From: Azolla caroliniana
Lineage: Eukaryota > Plantae > Polypodiophyta
DNA length: 64,000 nucleotides
Assembly: GCA_043228905.1 (NCBI GenBank)
Contig: JBHGNT010000012.1
Span: 2,480,001-2,544,000, forward strand
Reading direction: 5' to 3'
Under the pieces are notes generated by a model. The model saw only the letters and a program-made list of their open reading frames with translations. It did no database searches and was not told the DNA's origin. Each line of letters starts with the position of its first letter. Position 1 is the stretch's first letter. Made by a program: the position numbers and the translations under genes. Below are positions 14,351-49,604 of the stretch, one piece after another.

Positions 14351-14780
14351 GCCATGAGGAGGAGGGCTCTCTGTTCCCGAGAGGTAGGGGATCACCAGAC
14401 AGGCTCGAAGGCCATGAATTGCGAGACACTGAGACACCCACACAGAATAACGCCATTCGAGTACTCGCGTACACTGGTCATAAATGGATTGTAGATCTTG
14501 ATTCGATCAAAGTACAACTCGATTGGCATATATGTACTCATGAAAACACATGGCTACGTAAGGTCAGTTGGGACCCTTTGCAATGGACATGGCGTGATCC
14601 CTACGCGGGGCAAGGAAGCAAACCCATCCCTTTCTTCCAATTCACAACTAGATTGGGTCGCCACATTCTAGCTGCTCAAGCCGCCTGAGAATCGGCTGCT
14701 GCGAAGGTTTGGCACACATTTCAAGTTCCCTCCGCAATAATCACCAAGTTTTGGCAGAAAATCTGGAAGCAACAACACGC

Positions 14781-15431
14781 TGTCATGAAGAAAACCGTCC
14801 CTTAGCGCAATCGGTGCATAGCGCGCATGAACCGTCTCTTCACGCGTGCGCGCCCTTTAATGTATATAATAGAGAATTAGGTACAAAGGTATATCCTAGG
14901 TAGTTAGATTCGATAGGTAGGAAGTTAATGAGGGAAACGGCTCCCTTCTTGAAGCTATAAAAGAGAGGGAGTCGCGGGGGAGAGGGGATCACACATTGAG
15001 GAGGACGAAGTGCTGTCGGACCGAAACCGAACGCTTCCCCTCTGTTCGTTCTCCATCGCTCTTCTCTGCAGGTTTTCGGGAGGCTCGCGCTGCTTTGAGG
15101 AACGCCCGTGTGCTTCCGGCAACACCTCCATCCTGTCCCCTTTCGCGCGCAGACGAGCAGGCATCGACATCTGTTCGCCGGCCTGTTCGGTTGTAACCGC
15201 TCGCGTGCTCTGTTGTTTATTTGTCATTCATTAATATACAAACATTCGTGTCTCTCTGTCTCTGTGTCCATTCGTGTCTTCTGCGTTGACAAGGCCGTGT
15301 CCCTGTGTTTCTTTGCTCGTACGTAACCGAGCGTCTCTCTCTTTCTCTTTCCCCTTCTATCACCTGCTCTTTGGTTCAAGACCCCGGTGGTCCCGCCTCG
15401 TTTCTCCATGCACGCGCGTAGTAACGCGACA
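14781..15431 (+). repeat. 5' LTR of the Trp-primed Gypsy
   Basis: TGTCATGAAG...AACGCGACA, with TATA-like CTATAAAA near 14955. About 25 substitutions (hand count, ~4%) versus 21191-21841. Confidence 0.96.
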
Positions 15432-15435
15432 TCTT

Positions 15436-15453
15436 TGGTGAACCCGACGTGAA
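15436..15453 (+). promoter_or_regulatory. Primer binding site complementary to tRNA-Trp
   Basis: TGGTGAACCCGACGTGAA, 4 nt after the LTR. Matches my recollection of the plant cytosolic tRNA-Trp 3' end (TTCACGTCGGGTTCACCA). Confidence 0.8.
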
Positions 15454-15476
15454 ACAGGCGGCAGAGGAGCAGAAGA

Positions 15477-18400
15477 TGAGGGGGTCGGATCTTGCAGAGG
15501 CCATGGCTTCGGCCGTGGACCGGATAGTGAGCGCGCGCGAGGGCACTGGCGCCCTTGACAGGGCTATTGAGGCGATCGTCGGTACGATCGGCCGGTTCAG
15601 TGGAAAGGATGCCATGAGTTATTTGGCGTCCTACCGGGCGAAGATGTTGATGAGGGATATTCCGGAAGAGAGGCGTCTTGCCGGATTCCCTCGAGTGGCG
15701 ATGCCGGGCATCCATGCGGAGGTGCTCGAGGTCCGGGCGGAGAGCCAGACCTGGGAGGAGTTCGAAGGACGGCTCCTGGAGAAATACGGGCTGGATGACA
15801 CACTTCGACTTTCGAAGCGGGGCTTCATGGAGTGGGTAGAGTCCCTCAACAAAGGAAGAAATGCGTCGGTACTCCTCCGGGAGTTTGAGGAACGGTTTGC
15901 GTGCCTTTCGGCGCTCGATCGGACCGTTCTGGACACAAGTCGTGTCCTACTGTTTGTCAAATCGGTTGACGCACGGGATCGGGAGCAAGTGGGCTCCTTA
16001 TTGGAAACCGAAGACGGGCTGACGGCCGACTGGGCCGCGGTAAAAAGAATCTGCGGCCGTTTTGACAAACGGTGGGAGTGGGCTGATACAGGGGCGACCG
16101 GGGCGGGTCCTGTCGCAGCAAGGAAGCTCGAACCGATGCCACAGGCGCGAAGGGAAGAGACTTGGGAGTGGCTCGAAACCAGTTCGGTTTCGACCGGCGT
16201 GGTCAGAGGCTCGTCCCGGGGAACAGCTTTGGAGGAGTTGACACTGGCGGTAAAGGATCTCCAGATCGCCCAGGCTCGGAGGGAAGGCGGCGAACAGGCT
16301 CGTGACCGATGGCCTCCGGCAGGAAATGGGTGCATGTGGTGCGACGAGGCCGGCCACATCCGGAAAGACTGCGGGGACTTTGCGGAGGCCTTGAGAAGCC
16401 GAGTAGTGTACCTGTGGGAAGGTCGGGTGCACGCCAGCGATACCCGGAGGGCCCTGAACCGAAACGACGGGCGAGGAGGAATGAAAAGGCTGATGGAAGA
16501 GGCGGCGGCGCGGCACGCGGAAACCGTCCACTACTCGGCGTCAGCCGGTATTCGGGTCGGAGGCAGCGAGGCCCGGAAGGAGAGCAAAGCCGGGTTCTGG
16601 CCGACGATGCTTTTTGGCCGACGATGCTGGAAGGCCTCGCCGGTGCCCGACTAAGGAAAGACGAGGCGGACCGCGCAGAGAAGCGGGTCCAAGAGGTAAC
16701 CGGGTGGAGTGACCTGGTCGAACAAAAGACAGGTTTCGTCGAAGCAGCTTGCCAGAACTACGAGGCTCTGGTTGAAGATAAACGGGTAGGTAAAACCGGA
16801 GGGGCCGGACCCTCACAGAGATACGAAACCCGATTCGGGCTGAAACGGAACGAGGCCGGGGAGACCAGTGCCCGTGATAACCACAAGAAGGGCGGATACC
16901 GGTTGGGCATGGAGATCGAAAGGACCATGGACCTACGAAAGGTCCTGGAAGAATGATTCCTCGACAGCAAGGTCGAACTGTCGTTGCGGGAGGTGCTCGG
17001 AATCGCCAAGAAGGAGTTCCACGACTCCATCGTAGACTTGGTGAAGAGGAAGAGGCTGTCGACAGAGACAGAACCGGAAAGGCCGGTGGAGGTGCGGACG
17101 ACGCACATAGAGGACATGGCGCTGGAAGACGAGTGGGCGGAGAGCCACTATTCGAGGCCACACTGGGCCCGAGCGACCACGAAAACCCCGGTGAAGATCG
17201 GAGATGTTCAGGAACCAATGGTGGCGCTGGTGGACCACGATTTGGAAATAAACCTGATGTCCATGGACTTCTACAGAAAGGGGAAATGGCCGATCAACAC
17301 CAAGCATGGGTGGAAGATACGGGCGGCGACGCGTGCCACCAAGGAACTACACGGGGCTTGCCCAAACGTGCGAGTCAAGATCGGCGACGTCGAGGTAGAC
17401 CAGCACTTCTTTGTGCAGGAGACGTCCTCGCACCCGGTCATACTGGGAGAACCGTACATTACGGCAGCACGGATGGAGACCAAGGTGCTGGACAACGGGT
17501 CGGCTTACGCGAGGGTCAAGAGTCAGGACGGGCGTCATTCGGTCCAGTTCCTGACGGTGCGACTGAACCACGAGCGAAACCGCGAGTCCCTCGGTGGCGA
17601 GAACCGAGAGGATTTTTAGAGAGGGTTGTCAAGGCGTGGGGCCGCGATATTCTGGACACTCTGGGAAAACCCCACAAATGTACGATAGAGGCGAAACCGA
17701 AGAAACCTTGTACCATAAATAGGAAGTTTTGTTTCTCCGACAACGGAGGGTGTACGATAGTTGGCGTCGTTGGCCGAGAAAAGACAAGGGCGGAAGAGCG
17801 ACTTCGGGCGTGCAGAATTCTCGGGCCCAACGAAGAAATCAACGGAGCCGTGGAGGCGGTCTCCTTCGACGATACCTTGGGAATACTGCGAGAGGTGGTT
17901 GGAGAGGGCCTTAAAGAGGACCGGACGATACCGGTTTGTTCAGAAGAGATATACGAAATCATCGCGGACTTCAGTCGAGGGCTCGAGTCGGATCAGACGG
18001 CCTGGGTTTACACGAAGTACAAGACTATGGACCGGAAGGTAAGGCCAGTTGCGGCACCATTATCGGAGGGCAGCGACTTGCGAATCAAGGGGGTCGCGTC
18101 TGACCCCAGCTTACGAGATCCGGCCTGTATAGGACACACCTTCACTGACAGAACGCTACGGGAGCTCAAAATCGGTGGGGGCGGGTTCCTACTGCCGGCG
18201 GAAGAAGACCGGTTTCGAAGAATGCTCGGAAGGCACGGGAAAGTCTTCGCATTCTCACCGGAAGAGATCGGGTGCGTAGACCCGACAGTCGTGAAGCCGA
18301 TGGTGATATTCACGGTACCGCATGTGCCGTGGAATCTCAAACCAATTCCGGTACCGAGAGCTCACATCCCGGAGCTGATGGAGCTGTTGAGGCAGAAAGT

Positions 18401-21190
18401 CAATATGGGCATCCTCGAACCGTCGAGTGCCCCGTACTCGAACCGGTGGTTTACCGTACCGAAGAAGAACGGGACGTTGCACTTCATTCAAGACCTGCAA
18501 TCGGTCAACAGAGTGACCATTCGGAACGCAGGAATCGGACCAACGATAGACGAGTTCGCGGAGGCCTTCGCCGGAAGGTCGATCTACTCGGTTGGTGATT
18601 TGTACTCGGGGTACGATCAGTTACAACTAGCCGTGGAGAGCAGAGACATTACGACGATGCAGACTCCTCTCGGCCTAGTGCGGATGTGTACCCTGCCACA
18701 AGGAGGGACGAACTCGGTGGCCCACATGGTGAATGCGATGAACAAGGTGCTGAGGGATTGTATCCCGGACATCACCATGCCATTCTTGGACGACATCCCG
18801 ATCAAGGGATGTCCGGTGGAGAAAAAGGACGAAATGATCAGACCGGACGGATGCCGGAAATTCGTGGCGACACACATTGGCGACTGCGAGAGGGTGCTGC
18901 AGAGGCTAGAGGACGCGAGGCTCACCTTCTCCGGGGAGAAATCGGCCTTCGAGCAATCAGAGATCATGGTCGTCGGACATCTATGCGGACCGTATGGCCG
19001 GAAACCGTCTCCGGCTAAGGTGGAAGCCATCTCCGCAATGAAGCCCGACTGTAACTCGGTCACGGAGGTACGGAGGTTCTTGGGAGCATGCGCGTTCTAC
19101 CACATATGGATCCTGCATTACGCCCACATTGCCGAGCCGCTATACGGGTTGCTGAAAAAGGGGTGAAAATTCGAGTGGCGAGACGAGCATACGGAGTCGG
19201 TCCGAAAGATGAAGGAGGCTCTTGCTGCAACTCCGGCACTCCGGAAGGCTGTCTACGAGAAAGGCACTCCCATCTACATAACGGTAGATACAAGTCCGAC
19301 TGGGATCGGATGGGTCGTCAACCAAGAAGATGAGGACGACATTCGGTTTCCAATCCGGTTCGGCACGAAGGTCCTCATCGAGTGACAACGAGGATACGCC
19401 CAGGTTAAACGCAAACTCTGGGGTATCGTTTCGGCGGTGAAGGCCGATAAAGACTATCTGGTCGGGACAGAGGTGATTATCGAGACGGACTGCCTGCCGA
19501 TTCTCGGCATGGTTTCTGGATGCGCAACCCTGGACCTGGCAATGCTCAGGTGGATAGCGTACATCAAGTCCCTAGATCCGGAAATACGACACATTTCCGG
19601 GAAAGACAATGCCATGGCCGACATGCTTTCGAGGGCGCGATTCGATGACGAGGGCGGCATGGTTTCGGAGGACGAGGAAGTCGGCGTGGACTTCTTCGAG
19701 GCGGCTTACGTAACAACCGAGGGGGGGAGCACTCCGGCACTTAACGATTTCAACGAGAGCAAGTACGACGGGGAGTGGCTGCAGATTGGGGGATTCTTAA
19801 GGACGATGACGCCGGACGCGTCATGGACAAAGGACGAGGCCAACTGGATCCGGAAGAAAGCGTACCGTTTCTTTCTCCGGGACGGATACTTGTGGAAGCA
19901 CCCGAAGAAGAGAAATGGCATCCCGCTCCGAGTAGTGGCGATGGAGGAGGAATAGGAGGAGTTGCTGAAGGCCTACCACGACAGCCCCTAGGCTGGACAC
20001 CGTGGGACGTGCGCCACATTCGAGAAACTAAAAGGGGAAGTACGGGTGATCGGGATTGTACCGGGACGTGCATCGGTTTGTGACAACTTGTGAGAGCTGT
20101 CAGATACACTCCACAGTCCGACATCGGGACGAGCTTCACCCTACATACCCTCCGGCCATCCACTTCAAATGGATGGTAGATTTGGTGACGATGCCGATGG
20201 GCGTAGGGCAGATGCGATATCTGGTGCTGGCCCGGGAGGACATGACGAACCAGGTGGAAGGCCGAGCCCTGCAGAACAAAACGACTACGGCTGTATGTCG
20301 GTTCCTGATCGAGGACGTGATATGCCGGTACGGGTGCGTCGGGAAGATCGTGGCTGACCGCGGGGAGTTGGACGCCGAAGAGGCCGAGGAGCTGTTCGAT
20401 CGGTTAGGGGTCAAGCTCTCGCTCACCACAGCGTACAATCCGGAGGCGAACGGGAAGGTGGAGCACGGACACAGACCGATCGTCAAAGCGCTAGTCCGGG
20501 CGTGTGGAGGCCAGGTCGGGAACTGGCCACGACTGTTACCTTATGCCTTGTGGGCGGACCGGACAACACATAGTTCGGTAACCGGGTTCATGCCATCAGA
20601 GCTCATGTTCGGACAGAAGCCGATCATGCCGATGGAACGGGCGATCTCCTCTTGGGCGACAGTAGACTGGAGAGACGAGATGAGCCGAGAAGAACTGCTA
20701 GCGGCGCGTATACGGCAGCTCGAGCGGAGGCCAGAGGACGTGGAACGAGCGATAGAGAGACTTCGGACGACGAGGATGAGGAACAAAGCCCGGTTCAACA
20801 GAACGCACCGGCTCCGACCAAAGAAAATCGAGGAAGGCGACTGGGTGCTAGTTTATGACAGCAGCCTCGACAACCAGCACCGGGCAACACGGAAGTTTGC
20901 AAAGCGGTGGTTTGGGCCTTACGTGGTAACGAGTGCCAACGATAACGGGACGTATCACCTGGCGGAACTCGACGGTACGAGGATGGCGATACCAGTAGCA
21001 GGGAAGTGGATCAAAGTGTTCAAGAAGCACCACGACGGCGAACCGGATCTAAGAGGCCTGGACATTGACGACGAACAGTCCGAAACGGAGGACGAACCGA
21101 TGGACGAGGAACCGGAACCCGGACCGGTTTTCTCCAACCAGAACCCAATTTTGGCGCAGACCGGTGGATGCGCGGTTAGGTGGGGGAGGA
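15477..21190 (+). pseudogene. Gypsy gag-protease and RT-RNaseH-integrase coding region, disrupted
   Basis: ORFs 15449-16654, 16309-16956, 16984-17619, 16953-19166, 19437-19955 and 20056-21198. A 17-bp tandem duplication at ~16596-16630 frameshifts gag, and several stops interrupt the rest. Confidence 0.92.
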
Positions 21191-21841
21191 TGTCGTGAAG
21201 AAAACCGTCCCTTAGCACAATCGGTGCATAGCACGCGTGAACCGGCTCTTCACGCGTGCGCGCCCTTTAATGTATATAATAGAGAATTAGGTACAAAGGT
21301 ATATCCTAGGTAGTTAGATTCGGTAGGTAGGAAGTTAATGAGGGAAACGACTCCCTTCTTGAAGCTATAAAAGAGAGGGAGACGCGGGGGAGAGGGGATC
21401 GCACATTGAGGAGGACGAAGTGTTGTCGGACCGAAACCGAACGCTTCCCCTCTGTTCGTTCTCCATCGCTCTTCTCTGCATGTTTTCGGGAGGCTCGCGC
21501 TGCTTCGAGGAACGCCCGTGTGCTTCCGACAACACCTCCATCCTATCCCCTTTCGCGCGCAGATGAGCAGGCATCGGCATCTGTTCGCCGACCTGTTCGG
21601 TTGTAACCGCTCGCGTGCTCTATTGTTTATTTGTCATTCATTAATATACAAACATTCGTGTCTCTCTGTCTCTGTGTCCATTCGTGTCTTCTGCATTGAC
21701 AGGGCCGTGTCCCTGTGTTTCTTTGTTCGTATGTAACCGAGCGTCTCTCTCTTTCTCTTTCCCCTTCTATCACCTGCTCTTTGGTTCAAGACCCCGGTGG
21801 TCCCACCTCGTTTCTCCACGCACGCGCGTAGTAACGTGACA
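21191..21841 (+). repeat. 3' LTR of the Trp-primed Gypsy
   Basis: TGTCGTGAAG...AACGTGACA. Direct repeat of 14781-15431, preceded by the PPT. Confidence 0.96.
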
Positions 21842-22544
21842 ACACGAGGCGAATTACCACTTTCCAATGGCTGTTAATACATAAGTCCCTACCGGTGGGA
21901 GCATGGCAACGTGGGAACCTTAGCTCTCCTAATTTGTAGAGTGCCCACATGTAGTAGAATCCATACGACACGATCTGTGGGACTGCCCAACGTCCCATAG
22001 AATATAGCAGGGGGTTGGCCGCTTGTTGCAATTATGCCAGGTGCAAGGTTCAATCAAGTGGGGAAATATATGTTGGCTATCATGGCATGCTGCAATTGGC
22101 CGATACGAGCATCAGGAGGAGGGGATGACTTTGGTGATAAAAGCACAAGAGGTTCTTTTCTCCTCCAGCGGCAATGTCCACTATATTCCTCTTAATGACA
22201 AATCTCAAGAGGTGTTGGAATTGGTCAACCCAATAACCCTTTGGATTCTATGGAAACAACGATGTAGGCGAGTCTTCTCCAACCAAACCACCCATCCAAC
22301 AAGGTTACTACAAGAGATATGGAATGAAATTGTAGCCACTCTGAAGAGCCAATATGATGGCCTTAAAGGTGGCTCCGAGGGAGTTGAAAGACAACGCATA
22401 GCCTTCATCCAACAATGGTCGTCCTCTCCCTTTCTTGAGTCAGTGGGCTTCCACATTAGATGGAACTATCGCGTCCCTTTAGGGATTTGTACATAATCGT
22501 CTCATTTGTAAAATTTTATAACTAATGGAAGGAGTTTTTTTTTT

Positions 22545-22590
<46 letters not shown>

Positions 22591-22895
22591 TTATTTATTT
22601 ATGTTTAGTTAATATGTATGTATAAATGAGTGTAATGTATGTATATATATATATTCATGGATGTAGGTATATATGCATGTGTGATGTGTGATATATGAAT
22701 GTAGCCTGTACTATGTAGGTATATATGTATGTATATGATATGCATGTGTGATGTGTGTTATGTTTGTGTGTGTATGTATGTACATATTGTATTGTATTGT
22801 ATTGTATTGTATGTATGGAATGTGTGTATGTGCATGTATGTGTATATAATATATATATATTATTATATATAATATGATTTTTTTTTTTTTTTGTG

Positions 22896-26627: not shown

Positions 26628-27800
26628 AAATAAATGTGTGTAATATGTAATATATAAAATATGTTTGTAAGGAAGTGTATGTATAAATGTAATATGTAAT
26701 TTTTATGTATGTATGTCAATATATATGGCCAATTCTAATATGTATGTAGTATGTAATGCATGCATGTATGTGTATGTACATATTTACATATGGTAATATA
26801 TATTTGTACATATGTAATATATAAAATATATTTGTAAGGAAGTGTATGTATAAATGTAATATGTAATTTTTATGTATGTATGTCAATATATATGGCCAAT
26901 TCTAATATATATGTAGTATGTAATGCATGTATGTATGTGTATGTACATATTTACATACGGTAATATATATTTCTACATATGTAATATATAAAATATGTTT
27001 GTAAGAAAGTGTATGTATAAATGTAATATGTAATTTTTATGTATGTATTATCTATATATGTATGTCAATATATATGGCCAATTCTAATATGTATGTAGTA
27101 TGTAATGCATGTATGTATGTGTATGTACATATTTACATATGGTAATATATATTTGTACATATGTAATATATAAAATATGTTTGTAAGAAAGTGTATGTAT
27201 AAATGTAATATGTAATTTTTATGTATGTATTATCTATATATGTATGTCACATATATATGGCCAATTTTAATATGTATGTAGTATGTAATGCATGTATGTA
27301 TGTGTATGTACATATTTACATATGGTAATATATATTTGTACATATGTAATATATAAAATATGTTTGTAAGAAAGTGTATGTATAAATGTAATATGTAATT
27401 TTTATGTATGTATTATATATATATGTATGTCAATATATAATATGAATTTTTTTTTGTGTGTTTGGTTTGTATATTTGCATTTGTATATAATTGTGTGTAT
27501 AATAATAAATGTGTGTAATATGTAATATATAAAATATGTTTGTAAGGAAGTGTATGTATAAATATGTAATTTTTATGTATGTATGTCAATATATATGGCC
27601 AATTCTAATATGTATGTAGTATGTAATGCATGTATGTATGTGTATGTACATATTTACATATGGTAATATATATTTATGTTTAGTCAGCATGCATGTATAA
27701 ATGGGTGTAATGTATGTATGTATATACATATTCATGGATGTAATGTTTGAATGTAGGTATATATGGATGCATGCATGTATATGTATGTATGTATGCCACT
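26628..27800. repeat. AT-rich tandem satellite, unit ~170-180 bp, about six copies
   Basis: TAATATATAAAATATGTTTGTAAG(G/A)AAGTGTATGTATAAAT...TGGCCAATT(C/T)TAA recurs near 26647, 26815, 26983, 27163, 27343 and 27523. Confidence 0.9.
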
Positions 27801-28037
27801 TCAAATTTGAGTATTGTTTGCATAATATATTCTTTACTATCTCATTGAAATATCTAATATTTCATGGGCTTATGTAATTTTTTTTTTAGCATAATTGATA
27901 ATACCCTTATGTAAAAATATTTTCAATTCTTTATTAATACCCTTATGTATATATATTATGTATCTCACTGATTAATTAAAACCCCATTTGATGAACTCAC
28001 GTGCTATCATACAAGTTTTGACAGTGAAGTCCCCTGG

Positions 28038-31000: not shown

Positions 31001-31524
31001 GGCGAACTCCCAGTGTCATGGCGAGAATACCATCGTGCGGTGGGGCCGTCAAGGGAAAGTATAAATTCGGCAATTTTGGACGCATCGATCTCTCCGGCGA
31101 TGAGCCGTTGTGTTGAATGGTTGGCCTGCCATGTGTTTAGGAAGGAGCATATGTGAGCTTCGGCATCTGGCCCGTCAGTGTAGTGGACATAGGGGTGATA
31201 CGGCATGTTATCGAGATCTGATTCATCCGGTAGGTGCAGGACACGGTTACCCTCGGTGAGCGGTGCGAGTGCCTGAGGAGCCGGGATAGGGTGGCACTCA
31301 GTTGGGGTTGTGATTGCCGGAAGAGTATTTGAAGTCGTGATGTTAGGATCGATGTGAGACGTTATGTTCGAGACGTTGGGCGTAGAGGATTGGGCTTCCT
31401 GATTGACCGGAGACGAGGATTGCGAGTCCGGAGAGGAATGTTGTGTGAGCACGGAATCAGCCATTTCCTCGGCACGCTCTGTGCGGCAGGAAGGTGGCCG
31501 AGAACGAGTGGTTCTGGTGGGCAC
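28038..31524 (-). pseudogene. Gypsy gag, protease and RT 5' half
   Basis: ORFs 29539-31524 (retrotransposon gag-like region with CCHC motifs), 28197-29258 (LGRPWL, RT motifs) and 28007-28216 (VFLDDF...GHIVSKEGIA). Confidence 0.92.
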
Positions 31525-31579
31525 CGTACTGGCGACTGGGGAGACTACTTCGTAAGTTTGTTGTGAATCACAACGTGAA

Positions 31580-31591
31580 CCGGGCGTGCCA
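31580..31591 (-). promoter_or_regulatory. Primer binding site, probably tRNA-Arg
   Basis: Minus-strand TGGCACGCCCGG just inside the LTR end (...GGTAACA). Confidence 0.65.
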
Positions 31592-31596
31592 AATTG

Positions 31597-32129
31597 TGTT
31601 ACCGCCTATCTAGAGCAACACCTTCGATCCCTATATGGATTCGGACCAAGAGACGTGGTACGAGTAGTTCCTAAGTTACCCTTGATAAATGGCGAGGACT
31701 TTATGACACCTTCACCGATGAAACACAATACTTAGGGCATGAAATAGAAAAAAACTCACTCTGTGGCGTTACGGAAGTACCACGAAAAAAGCAGATCAAA
31801 ACCCAACTCTACTATATTAAATAGATCATGAATTACATGCTCACAACTATATGCCGGTATTAATTCTTGTTCCTCTAGACTATATGTTTGATCCTATTCT
31901 GATCTTTCTATATATCTCCCCCCTTACTGTCTTCAACTTCTTTTCTTATGTAGTTTTCTGTTTTCACCTTCTTCGGCGCACATACTTATTCTTTCCTCGG
32001 TTGCGTATGACTCGGCTTCCTGTTTCATAACACTCATTTACCAACTTTTACCAACTTTTCTAATTATGATTCTTTTTAGGTCTATATACGGTTCCCAACG
32101 ATATTACATTTTTAGTCCCACGGACAACA
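31597..32129 (-). repeat. 5' LTR of the minus-strand Gypsy (~530 bp)
   Basis: TG...CA termini (TGTTGTCCG...GGTAACA on minus) next to the PBS. LINE sequence starts at 32130. No partner LTR in the window. Confidence 0.75.
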
Positions 32130-32884: not shown

Positions 32885-33673
32885 TGTCGTGAAGAATTTC
32901 GGCCAGAGGCGGAAACCGGGAAACATTGGCTACATCGGCGAGGTGCAGTGTGTGTGCTCACCCATGTACATTTAGTGTGAATAACGAGGGCGCCTTTATG
33001 GCGCCGAAGAGTAGTCAAGTCGGGACAGACGATCCCATGTAAGTCGGGGTTTATCCCACATTGTAACGCATCCCTCTCCTTGTTCTATAAAAGGAAGGGA
33101 ACACCCTTTGTGAAGGGGTTGCCCATTTTGCGTTAGAGGGTATACCGTTAGATTTAGGGTTAGTTAAACTTCTTCTTCTTCTTCTTCTTCTTCTTCTCCC
33201 CCCCTTCGTTTTCGCTTAGGGTTTGCTTCAGCTCCTCTCCTGCGCAAGACCACGCTCGGCGCGACGAGCCCGTGAGCTCCCCGACCGGCGGCTTGGCAGC
33301 TGACGACTATTGTAACCTACCTTGGTCCGGCTCGAAGCCGGGAATGTATTCTTCCTCTTATATATATACATTTGCGTCTGTTTGTGTATATTCGCGTCTC
33401 TGTTGGTGTCGGGTGCTTCCCCTTTCCTGTGTTTCCTGTACATGAGGGCATGAGTCGAGTCGGCATGTGTGTGTGTGTGTGTGTGCGTGTGTGTGCGTGA
33501 GTCAGTGTTAAGCGCTCTCTCTCTCTCTCTCTCTCTCTCTCCCTTCGGTCGCTTCCGGTGTTCTTCTGGGATCCCCGGAAACGATGAAGCACGACTTCCT
33601 ACGCTCCGTCACTCCCTAGTCCAAGACCCCCGTGGTCCCGCCTTTCTCCACGCACGCGCGTAACAACGCGACA
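32885..33673 (+). mobile_element. Solo LTR (789 bp) related to the Trp-primed Gypsy lineage
   Basis: TGTCGTGAAGAA...CAAGACCCCCGTGGTCCCGCC...CACGCACGCGCGTAACAACGCGACA. Termini match those of 14781-15431. TSD CCGT. The LINE reads through once it is removed. Confidence 0.92.
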
Positions 33674-34892
33674 CCGTTGAAGATTAGAGTGAGAAGGGGG
33701 GCTAGGCACTCTCGAGCATATATGATGTGCTCGGCCCACAATCCTGTGTGGTCCATGGATTTCCTATGTTGTAGTTTTTTTATGACCTTCGTGACCCTAG
33801 AGGTCGTGAAAAGTGCCCCCATGGTAGGTCGAGGTGTGGAAGGCATTGGAATGGGTGGTTGGTCTAGGACATGGTAGAGTCTCTCAATATATGTGTGCCA
33901 AATATTGGGATCCTCGATGGGTGTTTGTGGTCTCGGTTCCCGTAGTCTCTTCCATGCAAGGGTGCAATCCCTACTCATGAGCATATGGTAGAGTTCCCAA
34001 TATTGAGATGCTTCCCAAACTCGTCTTTTACAACGTGTCACCTTGCGCATCTCTTTGTGAACCTGTACTGAGGAAATAGTGCCACTAAGTCGCGACACTT
34101 TAAGTTGTCTATACAACTCTCTACAATCCTCATCATACCACTTGTTCTGTGGCATAGACCCTATTCTACTATGACCAGAGTCTTTCATGTATGAGAAGCT
34201 ACTAATTGTTGTTGAGTGAAGGGTGAGTTCTGTAGTGAGGTTCTCTAAAGGCAAGAAAGAATCAAAAGATGAGAGATGGGCTTGAACATGTCAAGAGTAG
34301 ATGTTAGCGAGCTCATGCGTGAAGTGTATTATGGTGTGATGGTTGGGTTGACTAGAGTTGGTGGCGTGGGAATTGTCACGTTTTAGCTCAAAGTATAGGA
34401 AGTTATGGTCTGCACCAATGGGGCATGGGGCCACCCAGAAGTAGTTAACCATGTGGGTAGCTTTAGGGCGTCCTATTAGGTAATCAACTGTGCTTTCCCC
34501 TCCTCCATGTGGGAAACATGTGAGCTCTTCCGAGCTCGGCCACTTGGCTAAGCCATTATATATGATCATCTGGTGTCGGCTTCCAAGTTCAAGCAAATGA
34601 TGGCCAAAGCTTGTGGCGTCCGCACCTTGATCCTTTGATGTACGTGTTATGCCTAAGCCTAAAGGGTCGACATTCACCATTTCTAGGTTTCTATCCATCT
34701 GAAATATTGTGCATTGTCAGGATTGGGTTTTCGCATTGAAATCTCCTACAAGGAAGACTTCCCCTTGAGAGGAATATCGAATTATGTCATCTGATAAAGG
34801 TTCGTATGGAGAAGGCCCATTTGGCGTTCCTTCATCAACTATACTCGCCTCTCTAGCCATATTATACTGGAATCCTTTCGGGGGGAAGTAAC

Positions 34893-34944
34893 TGTAAAGA
34901 ATCGGGTGTGATTCTTGTGTAGCGGAATAGGTGTGAACTGTGTG

Positions 34945-34991
<47 letters not shown>

Positions 34992-35289
34992 TGAGACACA
35001 GAGTATACGCAAGGTAGATTATATTAACAAAGGAGAAAGACTCGACACAATACAAGGTGGGAGGAGAATGCTTTATATAGTCACCCTCTCTCTTCATTAA
35101 CTACAAGACTCATGGAGCATGGGGAATGTGAAAGCTCATAAGTTATGTGTCATAGAATATGATTCTATGACTCATACTAAATGCTAGAATACAAAGAGGT
35201 GACATAATGGTGACTCTTGACCGTTGGAGTGTCTATTCACTCTCAAGGTGAGTTCACACACTAGACCAAGTTGAGCTTGATTCTCAACA
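34893..35289 (-). repeat. 3' LTR (397 bp)
   Basis: TG...CA. Repeat of 39652-40105. Contains about 31 GA units. Confidence 0.95.
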
Positions 35290-35592
35290 CGCCCCCTCAA
35301 GCTCAAGTCGGGTTGGTTTCAGACGGTATCCGAAATCCGCTTCGACTCGCGTTCCAGAGTCCGCATCGACTCGCATTTATGTGGAGTTGCGGAATCCGTG
35401 CTCCAGCTTGCGTTGTGCGTAGTTGCGAAGTCTGTGCTTCGGCTTGCATCTTTCTTCGCGGCTTTGCGCGGTAGATCGGCTCTTCGCGGCTTCGTTGCGT
35501 GGTTGCGTAATCCACGTGTTCTTGCGTAGTGTGCACGGCTTGCGGAATCCACGTCTTATTGCGTAATGTGCGCGGTTATCGGAATCCACGCG

Positions 35593-38500
35593 TTATTGCC
35601 CAATGTCTTCAGTACTCCCCCACAAGCTTGGCAGGTTAGGGATTGTCAATTCGAGATCGGTCATGAATTGCCATAGCTTGTCGGCTCCTAAGGCTTTAGT
35701 GAAGATGTCGGCCGTTTGAAGATTTGTGCTAATGTGTTGTAGATCGACATCGTCAACTAGAACTCGCTCTCGGATGAAGTGATAGTGCACTTCGATGTGC
35801 TTTGTCCGCGCGTGGAACACTGGGTTCCGAGGATCTGCTCATGTTGTCGCAGTAAAGGGAAGTCGGATCCTTGATGGGTACGCGGAGATCCTTCAAAATC
35901 CTCTTGAGCCATACGGCTTCAGACGCAGCTACGGCTGCACCCCTGTATTCCGCCTCCGTACTCGAAAGAGCGACGGTAGGCTGCTTCTTGCTACTCCAAG
36001 ATATTGCTCCACTGCTGAGGGAGAAAACAAATACGAATGTTGATCTTCTATCGGCTTTGTAGCCGACCCAATCGGCATCTGTGTACCCCTTGAGGCATGT
36101 TGGCATCGCGATCTTGTAGAGGATGCCGCAATCCATTGTGCCACTCACGTACCGTAGAACTCGCTTAGCGCAATCCAAGTGAGTATCACACGGTGTTTGC
36201 GTGAATTGACTAAGGAGACCGACCGGATAACTGAGATCGGGTCGAGTGATCGTGAGGTAGATGAGACTCCCGATAAGTTGCCGATACTGAGTTGGCTCAC
36301 ACGCTTTGGTGCCGGAGTTCGCATCTAGTTTGAGGCCAAGGTTGTATTGCGTTATCTTCGAATGCCAAGCACGCGCCTCTTCTAATTCGCCTTATAGAAA
36401 GGCGTTCTTGACGTCCATTGGATGGAGGTGCCACCCTTTCGCCGCGGCAAGCGCAATTACGGTCCGCACCGTTGTCATCTTTGCCATTAGGGCAAAGGTC
36501 TCCTCGTGGTCAACTCCATGCGTTTGGGCGTAGCCTTTCGCTACAAGTCGCGCTTTGTAGCGGTTGACGGAACCGTCGGCGTGGTATTTCACGTTGTAAA
36601 TCCATCTGCATCCGATCGCCTTTTTCTATGGTGAGGTGGGCACGAGATACCACATCTCATTCTTGCGTAGTGCCTGCACCTCCTCGTTCATGGCTTCGAT
36701 CCATCGCGGATCCTTGGCTACTTCGGAAAAGGTTTTTGGCTCCCGTACTGTTGCTACCTTCATCATAAAGCCATAGTGATATGCCATGTAGTCGTTGTAG
36801 CCGAATCGGCTGACCAGATTCTTTTCACGGGTGGGGCGACGGAGCTTTTCATTTGCAGAGATGAGGGCTTTCTCAGCTCCGATTGGTACATCGAAGCCAC
36901 CGAACTCACTGTCAAGTGAGTGAGTCGACTCATCGTCGTCGAAGCGATCGTCTACGTATTCCACTATTTTCGCCTTGCCTTCGTCCATCTTCGGGCTAGG
37001 CCGTGATGTGCTTTGATCACTCAAAGGCTCTTGTGGTCCACTCAGTCGGGTCGTGATCGAACTTTCTTCGAACATGCATGTAAGGCGACCTTCATCCTCT
37101 AACTCTTGTTCGGCGGATTCCAGGTCGAGCGGAGTCGGAGTCGAAGTTCTCTCTGGTGCGTACCAGGATGCGGACTCGTCAAAAACGACGTCTCGACTTA
37201 CTCGAGATTTTCGAGTTAAGGGGTTGTAGCACTTGTACCCCTTTTGCTCCAATGAGTATCCTACGAGGATACATTTCTCCGACTTCGGGTCAATATTTTG
37301 ACGCTTCTCGTTGGGGATGTGCACGCACGCTATCACGCCGAATATTCGGATGTGCGATAAATCCAGCTTCTTTCCGAAGTATTTTTCATGCAGAGTGACC
37401 TCGGGCACGCCGGATGTTGTGCACCGGTTCATTAGGTAGATGGCCGTATTTGCAGCTTCAGCCCAATATGACTTGGGCATATGCTTCTCGTTCGTCATGG
37501 CCTAGGCTACTTCGAGGATATGCCGATTTTTGGGCTCGGCTACTCCCTTTTGTTGCGGAGTGTGTCAGCAAGTGAATTCTCGTTGAATTCCTTCCTTTCG
37601 GAGATATGCCGTGAAGTCGTCCGAGAAGTACTCCTTGCCGCCATCCGATCGAAGACAACGTACATGTCGGCCCGTGGCTTTCTCGACTTCATTGTTGAAT
37701 GTTTGGAAGTGTCCGAACACTTCTTTTGCCGCATCGGGTAGATCCAAGTGTGCCTAGAGAAGTTGTCGATGAAGAGCACGTAATATCGGTATCTGCCGAA
37801 TGTAGTCATCTGCGCCGGTCCCCATACGTCGGAATGGACTACGTCGAGTGGACCTTTGCTCACATTCCGCTCTGTCGGGAATGGGTGTCGGTGTTGCTTG
37901 TCGAATTGGCACACTTCGCATACACCTTCAATCTCCTTCTCTTTGAATGTCGGGAGTTCGATGACGACTCCTTTCGATTTCATTGCTTTGAGTTTGTTGA
38001 GATTGATGTGGCCGATTCGCTTGTGCCATAGCTCTATGTTGGAGTCGGCTTTCGTGCTCTTTGCGAACATGGCCGATTTCATCTTGTGTGAGTCGAGAAT
38101 GAACATTCGGCCCTCTCTTCGTCCACGTGCGATGAGTCAGCCTTCTTTCTTGATGAAGCAACTACCTTGATTAAATCGAACTTGCATACCTTGCTCTACA
38201 ATTTGGCCGACGGAGACCAAATTCTTCATAATGGTCGGTACATGCAAGACATTTTTAATGTAATTTTGCTTACCTTCTTTTCCGAACGGAACATTGCCGA
38301 TGTGCCGAATCAGGTGCGTAGTGTCATCTCCGGTTTCGACATAACCGGGTCGCTCCGGCTCTCGAAGTTCGAGAAACCATTCTTTATGAGATGTCATATA
38401 GTTTGAGGCTCTGGAGTCAACAAACCATACGTCCTCCGGATTGAGGGCACTAGTTGAGGTAGAGGCCGACATAGAGTTTGCTCTATGTTTCATCATGAAC

Positions 38501-39477
38501 ATTTCGCCACGGTCGTAGTTGTATGCGTACATCTTGCCACGATCCTCGTAGTCGGAGTTGTGCCCGTACATTCTGCTATACTCTTCGTAGTTGGAATTGT
38601 GCACGTAATTCGTGAGTTGTCGGCTTGTGGAAGCCGATTCACGCATCTTCTTTCGGCACTCTTCTTTGTGGTGGCCGAGCTTTCCGCAGTATCCGCATTC
38701 GGTTGCGTTTTGACGACTCAGGCCGGAGTGGAATCTCCCCCTTCTTGCGAAGGTTCCTCGTTGGCTTCCGTTTTGCGGCCGAAGTTGGGAGTTGTTATCG
38801 TAGGTCGGACCTCGTCCGCCTTGTCCTTGGCCGAATCAGCCTCTCGGTCGTCCGCATCCTCTTCCTCCGTTCGAGTGCATGTAGAGCATGTGGCCTTCTG
38901 ACTCATTGCTCCTTGTACGCACATGGTTTTCTTCAACCAATAGCATTGATTGGAGCTCGAAGAAGGAGGACGATTTCTCCTGTGCTAGAATGGCGGTTCG
39001 CATCGCACCGAACCGTGGTGCGAGGCCACCGAGGCATATTTGAACCATCTCATCATCATCAATATTTACACTTATTGAGCCGAGCGAATCGCAAAGCTCC
39101 TTGATCTTCGAGGTGTATGTCGTGATGGACATGTCCCTTTGTTGAATGTTGTTCAGCTCTTGGCGGAGTTGAAGCCTTCTTGCGGTTGTGTTCGCCGCAA
39201 AAATCTTTCGTAGATTTTCCCATGCCTCCTTCGGCGTCTTGGCTTCACGAATGTAGCCAAACATGTGATCGTGAACACATGTCGCCAAGCAATACATCAC
39301 GCGGCTTGCGGCCTACTCCCATGTCGCGTATCCGGGAGCCGCTTCGGTGGGTCAGTCTTCATGAGCTCCTTTGATGTAGCTCCAATAGCGTTGTCCGACA
39401 AGGTATTGGTGCATCTTGTACTCCCAAGATGCGAAGTTGTTTCGATCCAACTTCTCAGTAGGGAGAGCGCTCCCCAT
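35593..39477 (-). pseudogene. Copia gag-pol, fragmented and missing the central RT
   Basis: MGSALPTEKL..., WFVDSRAS, LWHKRIGH, VHSDVWGP, YKARLVAKG and DVKNAFL, then a jump to YRQLIGSLIYL (no YVDD seen), followed by ALSSTEAEY and ARTKHIEV. Confidence 0.9.
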
Positions 39478-39651
39478 TTGAGTATTCATTATGTCGATTC
39501 TTCTTCTTCTTCTTCTTCTCTCTTCGAATGTGAGCTATGTAGCGAAGCTACGATAGTGATGAGCCGGTTCTTGGTCGTCGGCGTGGAGCACAACACACGA
39601 TCATGATGAGGCGAATGGGCTAGATCGAGCTACCAAATCGCTTTGATACCA

Positions 39652-39696
39652 TGTAAAGAATACGGTGTGATTCTTGTGTGGCGGAATAGGTGTGAA

Positions 39697-39787
<91 letters not shown>

Positions 39788-40105
39788 AGAGAGAGAGAGA
39801 GAAGGAGTGAGACACAGAGTATACGCAAGGTAGATTATATTAACAAAGGAGAAAGACTCGACACAATACAAGGTGGGAGGAGAGTGCTTTATATAGTCAC
39901 CCTCTCTCTTCATTAATTACAAGACTCATGGAGCATGGGGAATGTGAAAGCTCATAAGTTATGTGTCATAGAATATGATTCTATGACTCATACTAAATGC
40001 TAGAATACAAAGAGGTGACATAATGGTGACTCTTGACCGTTGGAGTGTCTATTCACTCTCAAGGTGAGTTCACACACTAGACCAAGCTGAGCTTGATTCT
40101 CAACA
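39652..40105 (-). repeat. 5' LTR (454 bp)
   Basis: TG...CA next to the PBS. Contains about 42 TG units and a short (GA)n. Confidence 0.95.
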
Positions 40106-43100
40106 GTAACAAACGGCAATAAATATCACTTGATCCTTGCTAGTGAGGACTTTCACCCACATGAAACGGGTTTTTGGGTCTTTCTTTAGTATTTCTATCC
40201 TATTATTTATCTATCTCGGAAATAATATCGCAACCCCTCCAGACCCTCTAGTAGTGTGTCGACGTGAGGTGTACAAGAAGAAATCCTCCTCATTAGAGTT
40301 GATATTGATTCGACAGTTATTCAACATGAAGATGAGAGAGACGTATCCAACAACCTCCCACATCAACACCTTTAGTCGGGTGTTATCTGAACTCTCCTCC
40401 CAAGGGATTAACTTCGAAGAAGAAGTTAAAGCCCTTGGCCTCCTTTCGAGCTTACTGGCGAGTTGGGAGGTATTCTCGATAACCTTTGCCAATAGTTGTC
40501 CGAATCTAAATCTAAATGATACGATCGGACAAGTCCTCACCGAGGACATTCAGCAAAAATCGATGGGACTTACATTCGAGGAGTCGATAGAAGCCCACCA
40601 CTCGACCGAGCCGATCCAACAATCCAGCCGATCAAGATAACAAGTCAACCAAGAAAGAGGGGAGACCGACAACGGTCGAAGTCAAGGAATAGTCGATCAA
40701 GTGATTTCTACACTCATTGCAGAAAAATTGGTCACAACGTTTCTGACTACTAATCAATCAAGAGGAAGGAGAACGGTCGGCGATTCGAGCAGAACTCAAG
40801 ACGATCGGACTCGAACTGTTCTCCAGTCGGCAACCAAATCAACGTTGTCGACTCTTGATCAGGGGAAATCCTCGCTCTAGAGGACTCGATCATCGGAGAA
40901 GTCCTCTACAGTGCGCAAGACGCACAAACGTTGCTACTGGACTCTGGAGCCACATTTCACGTAACCCCCAACATCGAATGGTTTTCGAACTATTCTACCG
41001 GTGGCAACGACACATTCCGACTAGGCAATGGGCAAGAGTGCGCAATAGCAGGGATCAGAGAGTTCCTCATCCAATTGCTTAATGACAATACTATCACCCT
41101 GCACCGAGTCTAGCAAGTACCCGATCTAAAAAAGAATCTGGTCTCCATCGACATGTTAGCTGAAGGCGGGTACCGAACAACTCCTAGTGAGTCGTGATGG
41201 ACGATCAATGGCGGAAACATGAAAATCGGGAGTGGATGCAAGCTCAATAACTTGTATCCACTGATGACAATCAATCCAGAAGGGGTCATGAACATAGCCG
41301 AATCGTGGGACTCAAACCTATGGCATGGCCAACTTGGCCATATGTCACAAGTTGGACTAGACCTGTTGATGGCAATCAGCTAGATCCTGAAGCTCGAGAC
41401 AAAGACAGACTTTTGTGAGCATTGTCGTTACGGGAAACAAACCCAAAGTCCGCACTCTCTCCATTACGAGATGGTACGACAACCCCTAGAATTGGTCCAC
41501 ACAGATATATGTGGGTCGATGCCTGAATAGTCACTAGGAAGCTCTCGGTATTTTATCACAATCGTAGATGACTGTACATGGAAGTTCTGGGCCTACTCAA
41601 TTAGGTTGAAAGAAAAAGCGCTTGATGTCTTCTCTCGGTGGTTAGCTGAAGTGGAGAATTGATCAGGACATCGAGTGAAGACACTCTAGTTCGACAACAT
41701 AGGGGAATACACCTCCTGAGCCTTCAAATAGTACCGGTCCGAAAAAGGGATCCAAGACCAAAACACCGTTCCTTACACATCCATGCAAAATGGCGTGGCG
41801 GAATGAATCAACTGAACGATCTAGGAGAGGGTAACGACAATGCTCTAGTTATCCGAACTAAAGTTAGAATATTGGGCCGAAGCATTGCAGATGGTTGTCT
41901 ACCTGATAAATCTATCTCCGTCGAAAGCAATCAGGCTCGAAGTGCCACAGGCACTATGGTAAGGCAAAATGTTGACCTACGATAGGCTTTGTATATTCAG
42001 ATGCAAAGCCTATGTATTCATCCCAAGGAAGAAAGGGACCAAGTTGGCACCCCATGCAACAAAGTGCATATTTCTTGGATATGGAACCAATGAGGAATTC
42101 GACTATAGGCTAAGGGACCCTAAGAATCGGAAATTGATCCAAAGTAGCGACGTAGTCTTCAATGAAGACTCGATTCTCTTTGAACCAAACCAACCGAAAA
42201 CCGTCAGCAAAAAGGTTTCCTTGGAAATCGACAGAGATGTTGTAGAAGGACCGACCCACTGGCCTGAATCAGATATTCGACAAATAGTCGAAATCAACCG
42301 ATCCAACAACCCCCCTACTGAATCCGAATTGACAAGAGGTCCACTAGTTGAAATTGATTCGACCACAATATTGACAAGAGGTGAAAAAAGACAGAGTCAA
42401 AACAAACAAATCACCCACACAGGCCAAGGTACCAAAAGGTCGAACAGAACTAACCAAGGCACCAACCACTTTGTCAATTGATCCTTAAGAAGGGGAGGAT
42501 GATTCGACATCGTTGAAATCCTATTGCAGGGATGAGTCATCCAAAAGGACTCCTAATGACGGTTCAAGTAATATCAATCGGCCAAATGAGTTGATTGAAG
42601 AAATCGAACCAACAAAATCAGCACCCAGGAGATTCGGACGAGTCCGAAAGTCGATAGAGTTCTACCAACCGGGCCTCAACTACATCAATTGCACGAACGT
42701 AGGTGAGCCGAGCTCCTACAAGGAAGTTATAGAGACACCAGACGTCGACACATGGCTACAAGCCATGAAATACGAGATGGACTCGATTCATCAAAATCAA
42801 ACATGGGAGTTGGTCAAATTACCACCTAGAAGGAAGCCACTACCTTGCAAATGGGTCTTTAGATACAAATGTCTCTAATTCGGAAAAACCCAAATACAAA
42901 GCTCGACTCGTCGCAAAGGGATTCAAACAAGAAGACCATGGGGTCGACTACGACGAGATATTCTCAACAATAGTCAAGATGACCACCCTTCGACTTCTAC
43001 TTGGGGTCGTGGCGACTGAAGACCTAGAGCTTGAGTTGTTGGACGTCAAGACGACATTCCTACACAGAGACTTGGAAAAAGGCATCTATATGTCTCAACT

Positions 43101-43495
43101 AGCAAGCTTCACGACGATGGGGGAGGAAGGTCACCTCGTATGTCGATTGAAGAAAAGCCTTTACGGCTTAAAACCAGCATCGAGGATGTGGTACCAGAAG
43201 TTCAACTACTACATCAAGCAGCTTGGCTACCAACGGTCCGACTCTGACCTATGTATGTATATTCGGCAATTGGCCGACGAGTCCCCAATCTATCTGATCC
43301 TATATGTCAACGACATGCATTGTATGGAGCAATCGAGCAGATATTGAAAGATTAAAGCGGAGCCTTCATGACAAGTTTGTGATGAAGGAACTCGAACAAG
43401 CTCGACACATATTGGGCATGTGGATAGAGTGAAATCGGACAGCAAGGACCCTCCGGCTCTCCCAGTTCGACTATATCTGAAAGTTGTTAAAACGG

Positions 43496-44283
43496 TGTCG
43501 CGGAGATCCGCACGTGCGTGTCGGATAGGACGGGACCACATGGGTCTTGGACTAGGGAGTGAGAGAAGGGAAAGAAGCTTGGGAGTTTAACCGAGAAGGG
43601 AAAGATTAAGGTTAGAGAGGTTAAGATTAGAGACAAAAGAAGACAAGATTCATCGAATGATTATATTACGAAAACACCACATGAATTACAACCATGGCCA
43701 CGTAGGCCGAATGTAAACCCTCTAGATGAAACCCTAACCGGATAGGGGAAAAGAAGAAGGAGGAGGAGGAGGAGGAGGAGAAGAATGAAACCCTAAAACA
43801 AGATCCTAAAACCCGAAACCCTAAAACGAAATAGGGATAATTAAAACCTAATGGTCTAGTACCCTTAAACAACAAAATGGCGACCCCTTTCAATGGTGAC
43901 TCCTCACTCCCTTTTATAATAGTAAGGGGTGAGGCACATTACAAAGAGGGGCCAAATATTTCCCCAGTCAATGGGGAATATTTGCCTTGATCTTAGGAGG
44001 AGAGATTGATGGGGCCTTAACTCCCTCTCCTCACACTTTCAATTTAAACCCGTACCTCCATGCACTCCCCTTTAGTCTACATGTGTATGAGCCCCTAAGT
44101 ACACCTCACCTTTATACTTCACAAACTTTGTAGTGCACTTTTAACACCTTACTTTTTATCCTTCCTTTTACATTTGTTACTTATTATTATTTTACAAATT
44201 CCCTAGTACACGTGCAATGTTGCACAACTTGCTTTATTCGTTCCACTCAGGTTTTCTCACCATAGCCGAAAATCCTCACGACA
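43496..44283 (-). mobile_element. Solo LTR (788 bp), reverse orientation, related to 32885-33673
   Basis: Minus strand reads TGTCGTGAGGATTTTCGGC...CCCTAGTCCAAGACCCATGTGGTCCCG...CACGCACGTGCG...CGCGACA. TSD ACGG. The host Copia reads KLLKRFNMENVKP when it is removed. Confidence 0.9.
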
Positions 44284-44475
44284 ACGGTTTAACATGGAAA
44301 ACGTGAAACCAACTCCGTTACCGACGCCGATTAGACTATTGGACAAAGAATCTCCTTTAACAGATGAGGAGAGAAAGCTCAATGGAAAATTACCCTATGC
44401 ATCGGCTGTAGGAAGTATCATGTACGCAATGGTGGCAACCCGACCCAATCTTGCCTACATTGTGGGGGTCGTTAG

Positions 44476-45116: not shown

Positions 45117-45147
45117 AACTGGTATCAGAGCGACGGTAACACAGAAA

Positions 45148-49221: not shown

Positions 49222-49604
49222 AGGGGGAGTTTGTTGGGATTTCGGTCCCTCCGGATGGGATGTCCGGAGGTGAATGACGGCAAGCCCGGTTGCGGTTACG
49301 GAACCGGAGGATGAAGAGTACCCGGCATGAAGCCGGATGAAGAGTACCCGGCTACGGAGCCGGATGATGAAGACCCCGGCTACGGAGCCGGATGACGAAT
49401 GTACCCGGAGAGAGATCCGGATGCGGGGACATATTTGTGAATATGTTTGCCAAGGGCCCTTGAGGATATATTTGTAAATAGCCCGAAAGTCATATGTGTA
49501 TAAATATGACTTAGGGCAGACAGTTTTGATGTTGTTACTCATTTTTCTGTTTTCCATTTTAGGGAGTGAAGTGAGAGCAGCCGAGAGAGAGAGAGAGAGA
49601 GAGA

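What the first reader, a model, noticed from the sequence alone, without database searches (positions are those of the whole stretch)
14777..44287. Gypsy lineage with 4-bp TSDs all centred on CG: candidate CpG-targeted integrase
Seen: three independent insertions share LTR termini (TGTCRTGA...GTGGTCCCG...CACGC...CGACA). The full element 14781-21841 has TSD ACGC/ACAC, solo LTR 32885-33673 has CCGT/CCGT and solo LTR 43496-44283 has ACGG/ACGG. Each target is NCGN. The single mismatch is the G>A change expected from methyl-CpG decay, and the 4-bp reading restores the host LINE frame (QQHARRITTFQW). Both measurable Copia TSDs here are 5 bp with no CG (GTAAC, GTTAG). All three insertions lie inside other TEs, and the integrase has an acidic tail with no visible chromodomain. 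Known: plant LTR elements usually make 5-bp TSDs with weak sequence preference, while 4-bp sequence-biased TSDs are known from insect errantiviruses. Inference: the integrase may select CpG, possibly methylated CpG, steering insertion into silenced TE DNA without a chromodomain. The sample is only three insertions.
Basis: partly seen in the sequence, partly recalled or inferred. Interest (0 to 1): 0.8.

Follow-up and report, generated by a model that had tools for sequence, protein, structure and literature searches.

The report
CG-targeting retrotransposon; preference already published
This plant jumping gene inserts almost only at four-base sites centred on CG, a real habit but one already published for the moss "Phygy" group, to which it most likely belongs; nothing here shows that it needs the CG to be methylated.

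Summary
All three 4-bp target duplications are as stated, and a 4-bp length is confirmed independently at each site. An independent set of 84 unique LTR-genome junctions of the same lineage, collected with a motif that excludes the flank, has CG at positions 2-3 in 76 and TG or CA (CpG-decay products) in the other 8; background is 3.5%. Neumann et al. 2019 (REXdb) list the Phygy clade as 4-bp TSD 100%, NCGN, mostly tRNA-Trp primer, no extra integrase domain. This element matches those traits, but I could not run the RT tree against Phygy references, and it is shorter than the published range. New details are modest: the host is probably a fern, relatives occur in liverworts and ferns, ACGT is favoured (31 of 84), and T before or A after the CG is avoided (5 of 84 against 57%). 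That pattern points to integrase sequence or shape readout. Dependence on methylation is untested and not needed.

The parts
14777..14780 (+). Left target duplication ACGC (original target)
14781..15431 (+). 5' LTR, 651 bp, TG...CA; 96.2% identical to the 3' LTR (22 transitions, 12 in CpG context; 3 transversions; K2P 0.040)
15436..15452 (+). Primer-binding site after a 4-nt spacer; same motif after 30 other LTR ends; tRNA-Trp assignment is recalled, not shown by a call
   Evidence: searches found no tRNA to test it
15425..17619 (+). gag-like and protease-like frames (no Pfam hit; assigned by position and by homology to locus L070); broken by stops and a frameshift
17988..19955 (+). Reverse transcriptase (RVT_1) and RT RNase H, with in-frame stops; no additional archaeal-type RNase H seen
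20050..21198 (+). Integrase frame: CC half of the zinc finger, D44-D103-E138 core, SH3-like strands with GPY, acidic low-confidence tail, no chromodomain
21178..21190 (+). Polypurine tract
21191..21841 (+). 3' LTR
21842..21845 (+). Right target duplication ACAC (G>A at the CpG)
32885..33673 (+). Solo LTR, second family, TSD CCGT/CCGT, inside a LINE RT; 86% over 357 bp to locus L105, which carries the same PBS and a related gag
43496..44283 (-). Solo LTR, third family, TSD ACGG/ACGG (CCGT in element orientation), inside a Copia RT
14356..22277 (+). Host LINE ORF2 remnant on both sides of the full element
51998..52001 (.). Uninterrupted paralogous LINE site for solo 1 (four bases, CGGT)
34893..40105 (-). 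Control Copia element, 5-bp TSD GTAAC
44476..53251 (+). Control Copia element, 5-bp TSD GTTAG

Best explanation
These are three families of a chromodomain-less Ty3/gypsy retrotransposon lineage, most likely the Phygy clade, that insert with a 4-bp duplication centred on CG and favouring ACGT, likely because the integrase itself reads the target sequence or its shape. Shown: the 4-bp stagger, the CG centre, the A/C/G-CG-T/G/C flanks, and the lack of a chromodomain. Inferred: the intasome bends the target at the central pyrimidine-purine step, as foamy virus integrase does for its 4-bp stagger. Base contacts would then narrow the choice to CG, since TA never occurs. Candidate contacts are the clade-typical D-R-G-E motif (Glu106 aligns with PFV Ala188) and the basic loop 273-286 of the C-terminal domain. 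Inferred: the TG and CA sites arose by methyl-C decay after insertion. Nesting in transposons would follow from CG density and genome composition, without a methyl reader.
For: 76 of 84 unique right junctions have CG and the other 8 TG or CA, against 3.5% background. Of 16 left junctions, 12 are CG, 2 CA, 1 TG, 1 CT. ACGT is 31 of 84 after restoring decay, against 6.9% of background NCGN; T at position 1 or A at position 4 is 5 of 84 against 57% (chi-square p 6e-17 and 8e-13). TG at the target (6 of 84) is no commoner than decay of the LTR's own terminal CpG (11 of 84; Fisher p 0.31). Phygy is published as 4 bp 100%, NCGN, tRNA-Trp 81%, no extra domain. No chromodomain or extra RNase H in Pfam; 1 of 120 long homologs lists a chromodomain, at 39% identity. 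The model shows SH3-like strands, then a low-confidence tail; top fold matches are PFV, then Ty3 integrases. DRGE in 50 of the 59 closest rows and an acidic residue at 106 in 59 of 59. Precedent: YR preference scales with short TSD and is largely chromatin-independent (PMC4422553 abstract); purified ZAM integrase binds CGCGCG (PMC2527525); Ginger1 makes CCGG/CCGT 4-bp TSDs (PMC2836005).
Against: No named Physcomitrium Phygy protein appeared among the 240 listed homologs, and the REXdb fasta could not be read, so clade membership by tree is untested. Length 7061 bp is below Phygy's 7656-9968. Of 9 contigs holding both ends of a solo LTR, only 3 have matching 4-bp TSDs; 6 mismatch. I read these as contigs joined across a collapsed LTR, or as ectopic recombinants, but did not show it. 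One left junction is CCTT. The 119 loci come from 14 assemblies with neighbouring numbers, probably one campaign, and may be a related species. In PFV, Ala188 contacts bases outside the TSD (PMC4005685), so Glu106 need not explain the central CG. No methylation data were available.
Confidence: 0.75

Rival explanations
1. The integrase or a host tether selects methylated CpG, steering insertions into silenced transposon DNA without a chromodomain.
For: All three window insertions lie in transposons. At least 23 of 83 scored flanks are recognisable transposon DNA (18 other, 5 own lineage). Phygy was reported enriched at liverwort centromeres (PMC12885004) and often nested in Tcn1 in moss (PMC6911290). 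Target CGs do decay (8 of 84), so they become methylated at some time.
Against: The window is nearly all transposon, and 60 of 83 flanks were unassigned, with no genome-wide null. No methyl-binding domain was found. The choice of bases around CG is not what methylation alone predicts. There is no excess of TG targets, which 5-methyl mimicry might give (weak). Decay after insertion explains the 8 sites. ZAM recognises CG-rich targets in Drosophila, which lacks substantial CpG methylation (recalled).
Confidence: 0.13
2. The lineage has the same target habit but is a separate, unnamed non-chromovirus clade rather than Phygy proper, for example a sister group in ferns and liverworts or a fungal-related clade.
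For: Named relatives are Riccia, Calypogeia and Adiantum, then fungi (Olpidium 43%, Smittium 41%). Size is outside the Phygy range. REXdb defined Phygy from one species.
Against: TSD length, NCGN motif, primer type (recalled) and lack of extra domains all match Phygy and no other REXdb clade together. Phygy has since been called in a liverwort.
Confidence: 0.1
3. The pattern is an artefact of LTR boundary choice or of a small sample.
For: Only three sites in the window; LTR ends are CG-rich; 6 of 9 paired contigs have mismatched TSDs.
Against: Boundaries are fixed by TG...CA, by the PBS after 30 LTR ends and by empty sites. The search motif stopped at the terminal CA, and beyond four bases the 84 flanks are unrelated.
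Confidence: 0.02

Closest known systems
Phygy clade, non-chromovirus Ty3/gypsy of Physcomitrium patens (REXdb; Neumann et al. 2019, PMC6317226)
   Same: 4-bp TSD, NCGN preference, tRNA-Trp primer (my assignment is recalled), no chromodomain, no extra RNase H, coding region filling the internal part.
   Different: Host is probably a fern; 7.06 kb against 7.66-9.97 kb; the ACGT bias and avoidance of T before or A after the CG are not in the passages and table I read; membership by tree untested.
TatI and Selgy clades (REXdb)
   Same: 4-bp TSDs; TatI also uses tRNA-Trp (75% of 4 elements).
   Different: TatI carries an additional RNase H, not found here; Selgy uses tRNA-Ala and is 4.4-6.7 kb; no NCGN motif is listed for either.
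Ginger1 DNA transposons (Bao et al. 2010, PMC2836005)
   Same: Gypsy-type integrase; 4-bp CG-centred TSD (CCGG 75%, CCGT/ACGG 24%); TGT termini.
   Different: DNA transposons with terminal inverted repeats in animals; prefer CCGG rather than ACGT.
Drosophila errantiviruses: ZAM (PMC2527525) and the gypsy/Idefix/412 groups (PMC3276498)
   Same: Sequence-biased targets; 4-bp TSDs in the gypsy group; ZAM integrase binds its CG-rich target directly.
   Different: Motifs are CGCGCg, TATA or ATAT; insect hosts.
Prototype foamy virus intasome (PMC4005685, PMC4422553)
   Same: 4-bp stagger, central YR step, top sequence and fold matches for this integrase.
   Different: Weak preference for any YR step, not near-absolute CG.

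Membership tests
Ty3/gypsy LTR retrotransposon | LTRs TG...CA, PBS, PPT, order RT-RH-INT | tested here: met
Phygy (REXdb) | 4-bp TSD | tested here: met
   3 of 3 in the window with independent length checks; 3 of 9 paired contigs match at 4 bp, 6 mismatch
Phygy (REXdb) | NCGN target motif | tested here: met
   76 of 84 CG, 8 of 84 TG or CA
Phygy (REXdb) | tRNA-Trp primer-binding site | tested here: inconclusive
   Conserved TGG-starting PBS after 30 LTR ends. Match to plant tRNA-Trp is recalled; 31 loci scanned held no tRNA to compare
Phygy (REXdb) | No chromodomain or additional RNase H in the polyprotein | tested here: met
Phygy (REXdb) | RT-RH-INT phylogeny grouping with P. patens Phygy references (the primary criterion) | not testable with these tools
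   REXdb fasta unreadable; no named P. patens homolog among 240 listed. The integrase tree places it with Riccia elements, far from the window's other Gypsy (quick tree)
Phygy (REXdb) | Size 7656-9968 bp (descriptive range from one species, not a defining trait) | tested here: not met
   7061 bp
TatI (REXdb) | Additional archaeal-type RNase H domain | tested here: not met
   No such Pfam hit in the element or in 120 long homologs; RT-RH-INT run on without room
Selgy (REXdb) | tRNA-Ala PBS and 4.4-6.7 kb length | tested here: inconclusive
   Length 7.06 kb is outside the range; PBS identity rests on recall
Chromovirus | C-terminal chromodomain | tested here: not met

The most novel reading that the evidence does not exclude
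Phygy-type integrases are a widespread clade in ferns and liverworts that read methylated ACGT directly, with no chromodomain or methyl-binding domain. That would give a DNA-methylation-guided route into silenced chromatin, and their own duplicated target sites would be re-used as landing pads.
Probability: 0.13. Interest if true: 0.7.

Novelty: new member of a known kind. Interest (0 to 1): 0.22.

Why it matters
The CG preference is published, so the headline is not new. What remains useful: in the survey read, Phygy is the one plant LTR lineage with a target motif, and in my searches and the passages I read nobody tested how it is read. This work adds a sharper motif (ACGT favoured, TCG and CGA avoided), a probable extension to ferns and liverworts, candidate residues and a naturally open pol frame (P0122 in locus L070) for an assay. 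If the integrase proved methylation-sensitive it would be a new chromodomain-free way to target silent DNA.

Tried and rejected
No host genome is held, so the genome-wide count was replaced by a metagenome motif scan. Viral-contig scans for relatives gave nothing. The prokaryote-genome scan gave 5 contigs; the best, L120 (62%), shows no recognisable LTR end or TSD in the part read. Cluster look-ups named no organism. The Atlas gave generic integrase clusters, top one commonest Basidiomycota with phylum known for 3 members. The first read lay gave only consensus loose ends and no per-site counts. No RNA holder was listed; expression was not examined. The PBS could not be matched to a tRNA gene. 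The careful integrase tree did not finish; the quick tree was used, with 69 of 105 rows kept. Rejected readings: a 5-bp TSD (fails at all three sites; for the full element the alternative ACACG plus one extra base is excluded by empty-site contigs); TatI (no additional RNase H); GingerRoot (6-bp TSD, GC-rich but not sequence-specific). Rows dropped before the count of 84: of 120 matches, 30 were followed by the PBS, 2 had under 20 bases and 4 were duplicate sites. In one search the left-junction list had 18 rows; L053 is a polypurine tract and L069 appears twice, leaving the 16. The first two earlier-findings look-ups were empty.
Full report
Observation. The window holds one full Ty3/gypsy element at 14781-21841 (651-bp LTRs, 96.2% identical) and two solo LTRs at 32885-33673 (+) and 43496-44283 (-). 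Their flanks are ACGC/ACAC, CCGT/CCGT and ACGG/ACGG. The three LTRs are different families that share little beyond their last 50-67 bases. Each 4-bp length has its own check. Contigs of uninterrupted host-LINE copies leave the window after 14780 and continue with the sequence starting at 21846 (11 in run X3, 6 in X4), so ACGC is the original target. A paralogous LINE in the window has four bases at the solo-1 site, though they read CGGT there. Of overlaps 3-6, only 4 keeps the Copia RT frame across solo 2. The two Copia controls have 5-bp, CG-free TSDs.

Independent test. No host genome is held. I scanned metagenome contigs with a motif for the LTR 3' end that stops at the terminal CA and so cannot bias the flank: 119 loci, 120 matches. 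Thirty were followed by the primer-binding site, 2 were too short and 4 were duplicate sites, leaving 84. Positions 2-3 were CG in 76, TG in 6, CA in 2 and nothing else; background CG in the same flanks is 3.5% (p 7e-101). Of 16 left junctions, 12 were CG, 2 CA, 1 TG and 1 CT. The TG rate (6 of 84) is no higher than decay of the LTR's own terminal CpG (11 of 84; p 0.31), so decay after insertion suffices. These loci belong to the same lineage: LTRs are 66-92% identical to the window's, and L070 carries RT, integrase and protease frames 79-80% identical. Caveats: they come from 14 assemblies with neighbouring numbers, probably one campaign and perhaps a related species. Only 3 of 9 contigs spanning a whole solo LTR have matching TSDs (all ACGT); the 6 others mismatch, which I attribute, without proof, to joins across collapsed repeats or ectopic recombination.

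Finer motif. Position 1 is A 54, C 18, G 9, T 3; position 4 is T 46, C 19, G 17, A 2. With decay restored, ACGT is 31 of 84 against 6.9% of background NCGN, and sites with T first or A last are 5 of 84 against 57%. In L033 and L069 a second LTR abuts another across a single ACGT, as expected if a duplicated target is re-used; misassembly is not excluded.

Identity. The element has RT, RNase H and integrase in gypsy order and no chromodomain or additional RNase H. It is broken by stops and frameshifts. Named relatives are Riccia, Calypogeia and Adiantum elements at about 45-68% identity, then fungal ones near 41-43%. A quick integrase tree places it among unnamed and Riccia elements, far from the window's second Gypsy. 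A phosphoglycerate dehydrogenase gene at 59809-62301 has ferns as best hits and groups with them at modest support (85), so the host is probably a fern. Neumann et al. 2019 (PMC6317226; passages, section 9 and Additional file 5 read) write that Phygy elements are the exception among plant LTR elements in having an insertion preference for NCGN. Their table gives 186 elements, 4 bp 100%, tRNA-Trp 81%, no extra domain, 7656-9968 bp. PMC6911290 (passages) also finds 4-bp TSDs dominant in Phygy, and PMC12885004 (passages) reports Phygy in a liverwort. The primer site here is conserved after 30 LTR ends; that it matches tRNA-Trp is my recall and could not be confirmed. The primary criterion, a tree with REXdb references, was not possible: Additional files 1 and 3 are too large to read and may also hold the TSD list that would show whether the ACGT bias was already visible. 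I put Phygy membership at about 0.85.

Mechanism. Shown: 4-bp stagger, CG centre, palindromic flank bias, no chromodomain; the model has an integrase core, SH3-like strands and a low-confidence acidic tail, with PFV and Ty3 integrases as best matches. From the literature: integrases with a 4-bp stagger bend the target at a central pyrimidine-purine step, largely independent of chromatin (PMC4422553 abstract), and PFV Ala188 and Arg329 touch bases (PMC4005685 passages). Inferred: bendability alone cannot explain the pattern, because TA never occurs and TG/CA occur only at decay frequency, so base-specific contacts are likely. Candidates are the D-R-G-E motif (50 of the 59 closest rows; acidic at the Ala188-aligned position in 59 of 59) and the conserved basic loop 273-286. 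PFV Ala188 contacts bases outside the TSD, so the loop is the better candidate for the centre. Precedents for CG-centred targets exist: ZAM integrase binds CGCGCG in vitro (PMC2527525 abstract and passages) and Ginger1 makes CCGG/CCGT TSDs (PMC2836005 passages). Drosophila gypsy-group elements have 4-bp TATA or ATAT motifs (PMC3276498 passages).

Methylation. Nothing here tests it. The window is nearly all transposon. Of 83 flanks long enough to score, 23 were recognisable transposon DNA (5 from the lineage itself, whose CG density is 8.9% against 4.0% in the rest of the window) and 60 were unassigned. I found no paper testing methylation dependence for Phygy in searches for 'Phygy' (18 papers listed), 'NCGN' with 'retrotransposon' (2), a six-term CpG/methylation search (3) and moss and fern searches. 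I read passages of only some of these, and subscription journals are not covered. Passages of PMC7466625, PMC6839031, PMC9002660, PMC13469084 and PMC11899658 added nothing on this point.

Verdict. A real, strong and already published target preference, seen in new members of what is most likely the Phygy clade. The refinements (ACGT bias, probable fern host, candidate residues) are minor. The methyl-CpG idea is an open but unsupported extra (about 0.13). Interest 0.22.

Noticed in passing
window 15432-15435 and 30 PBS-bearing matches among L001-L119: The spacer between LTR end and primer-binding site is 4 nt in 16, 5 in 7, 2 in 6 and 6 in 1, longer than the 1-3 nt I recall as usual; it would imply a longer overhang for integrase 3' processing.
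   Followed up: partly
L033, L069, L114: Two LTRs abut across one ACGT (tail-to-head in L033, head-to-head between different families in L069), suggesting re-insertion into an existing target duplication. L114 has an LTR end directly followed by a second LTR terminus (nested insertion or short duplication).
   Followed up: partly
L037 689-3087: Two LTRs each preceded by a polypurine tract and followed by a PBS, about 2.35 kb apart: a tandem, internally short (non-autonomous) structure, or a collapsed assembly.
   Followed up: no
window 7434-8993, 28200-29351, 29542-31605 (minus): A second, unrelated Gypsy element (25-28% identity in RT and integrase) whose gag/RT and integrase lie about 19 kb apart, with LINEs and the studied element between them.
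   Followed up: partly
window 59809-62301 (+): Host D-3-phosphoglycerate dehydrogenase gene; best hits are ferns at 76-78%, long branch.
   Followed up: partly
L120-L124: Gypsy-type integrase in contigs of five prokaryote genome assemblies (L120 62% identical), probably eukaryotic contamination of those bins.
   Followed up: no
window 468-4339 and 45607-49536: Two related Copia elements, 84% identical; the second carries a LINE with a 1182-aa open frame (49834-53379 minus) inside its 3' LTR.
   Followed up: no
window 9500-14350, 26630-27800, 56970-57190: Long degenerate low-complexity repeat tracts, GC down to 21%.
   Followed up: no
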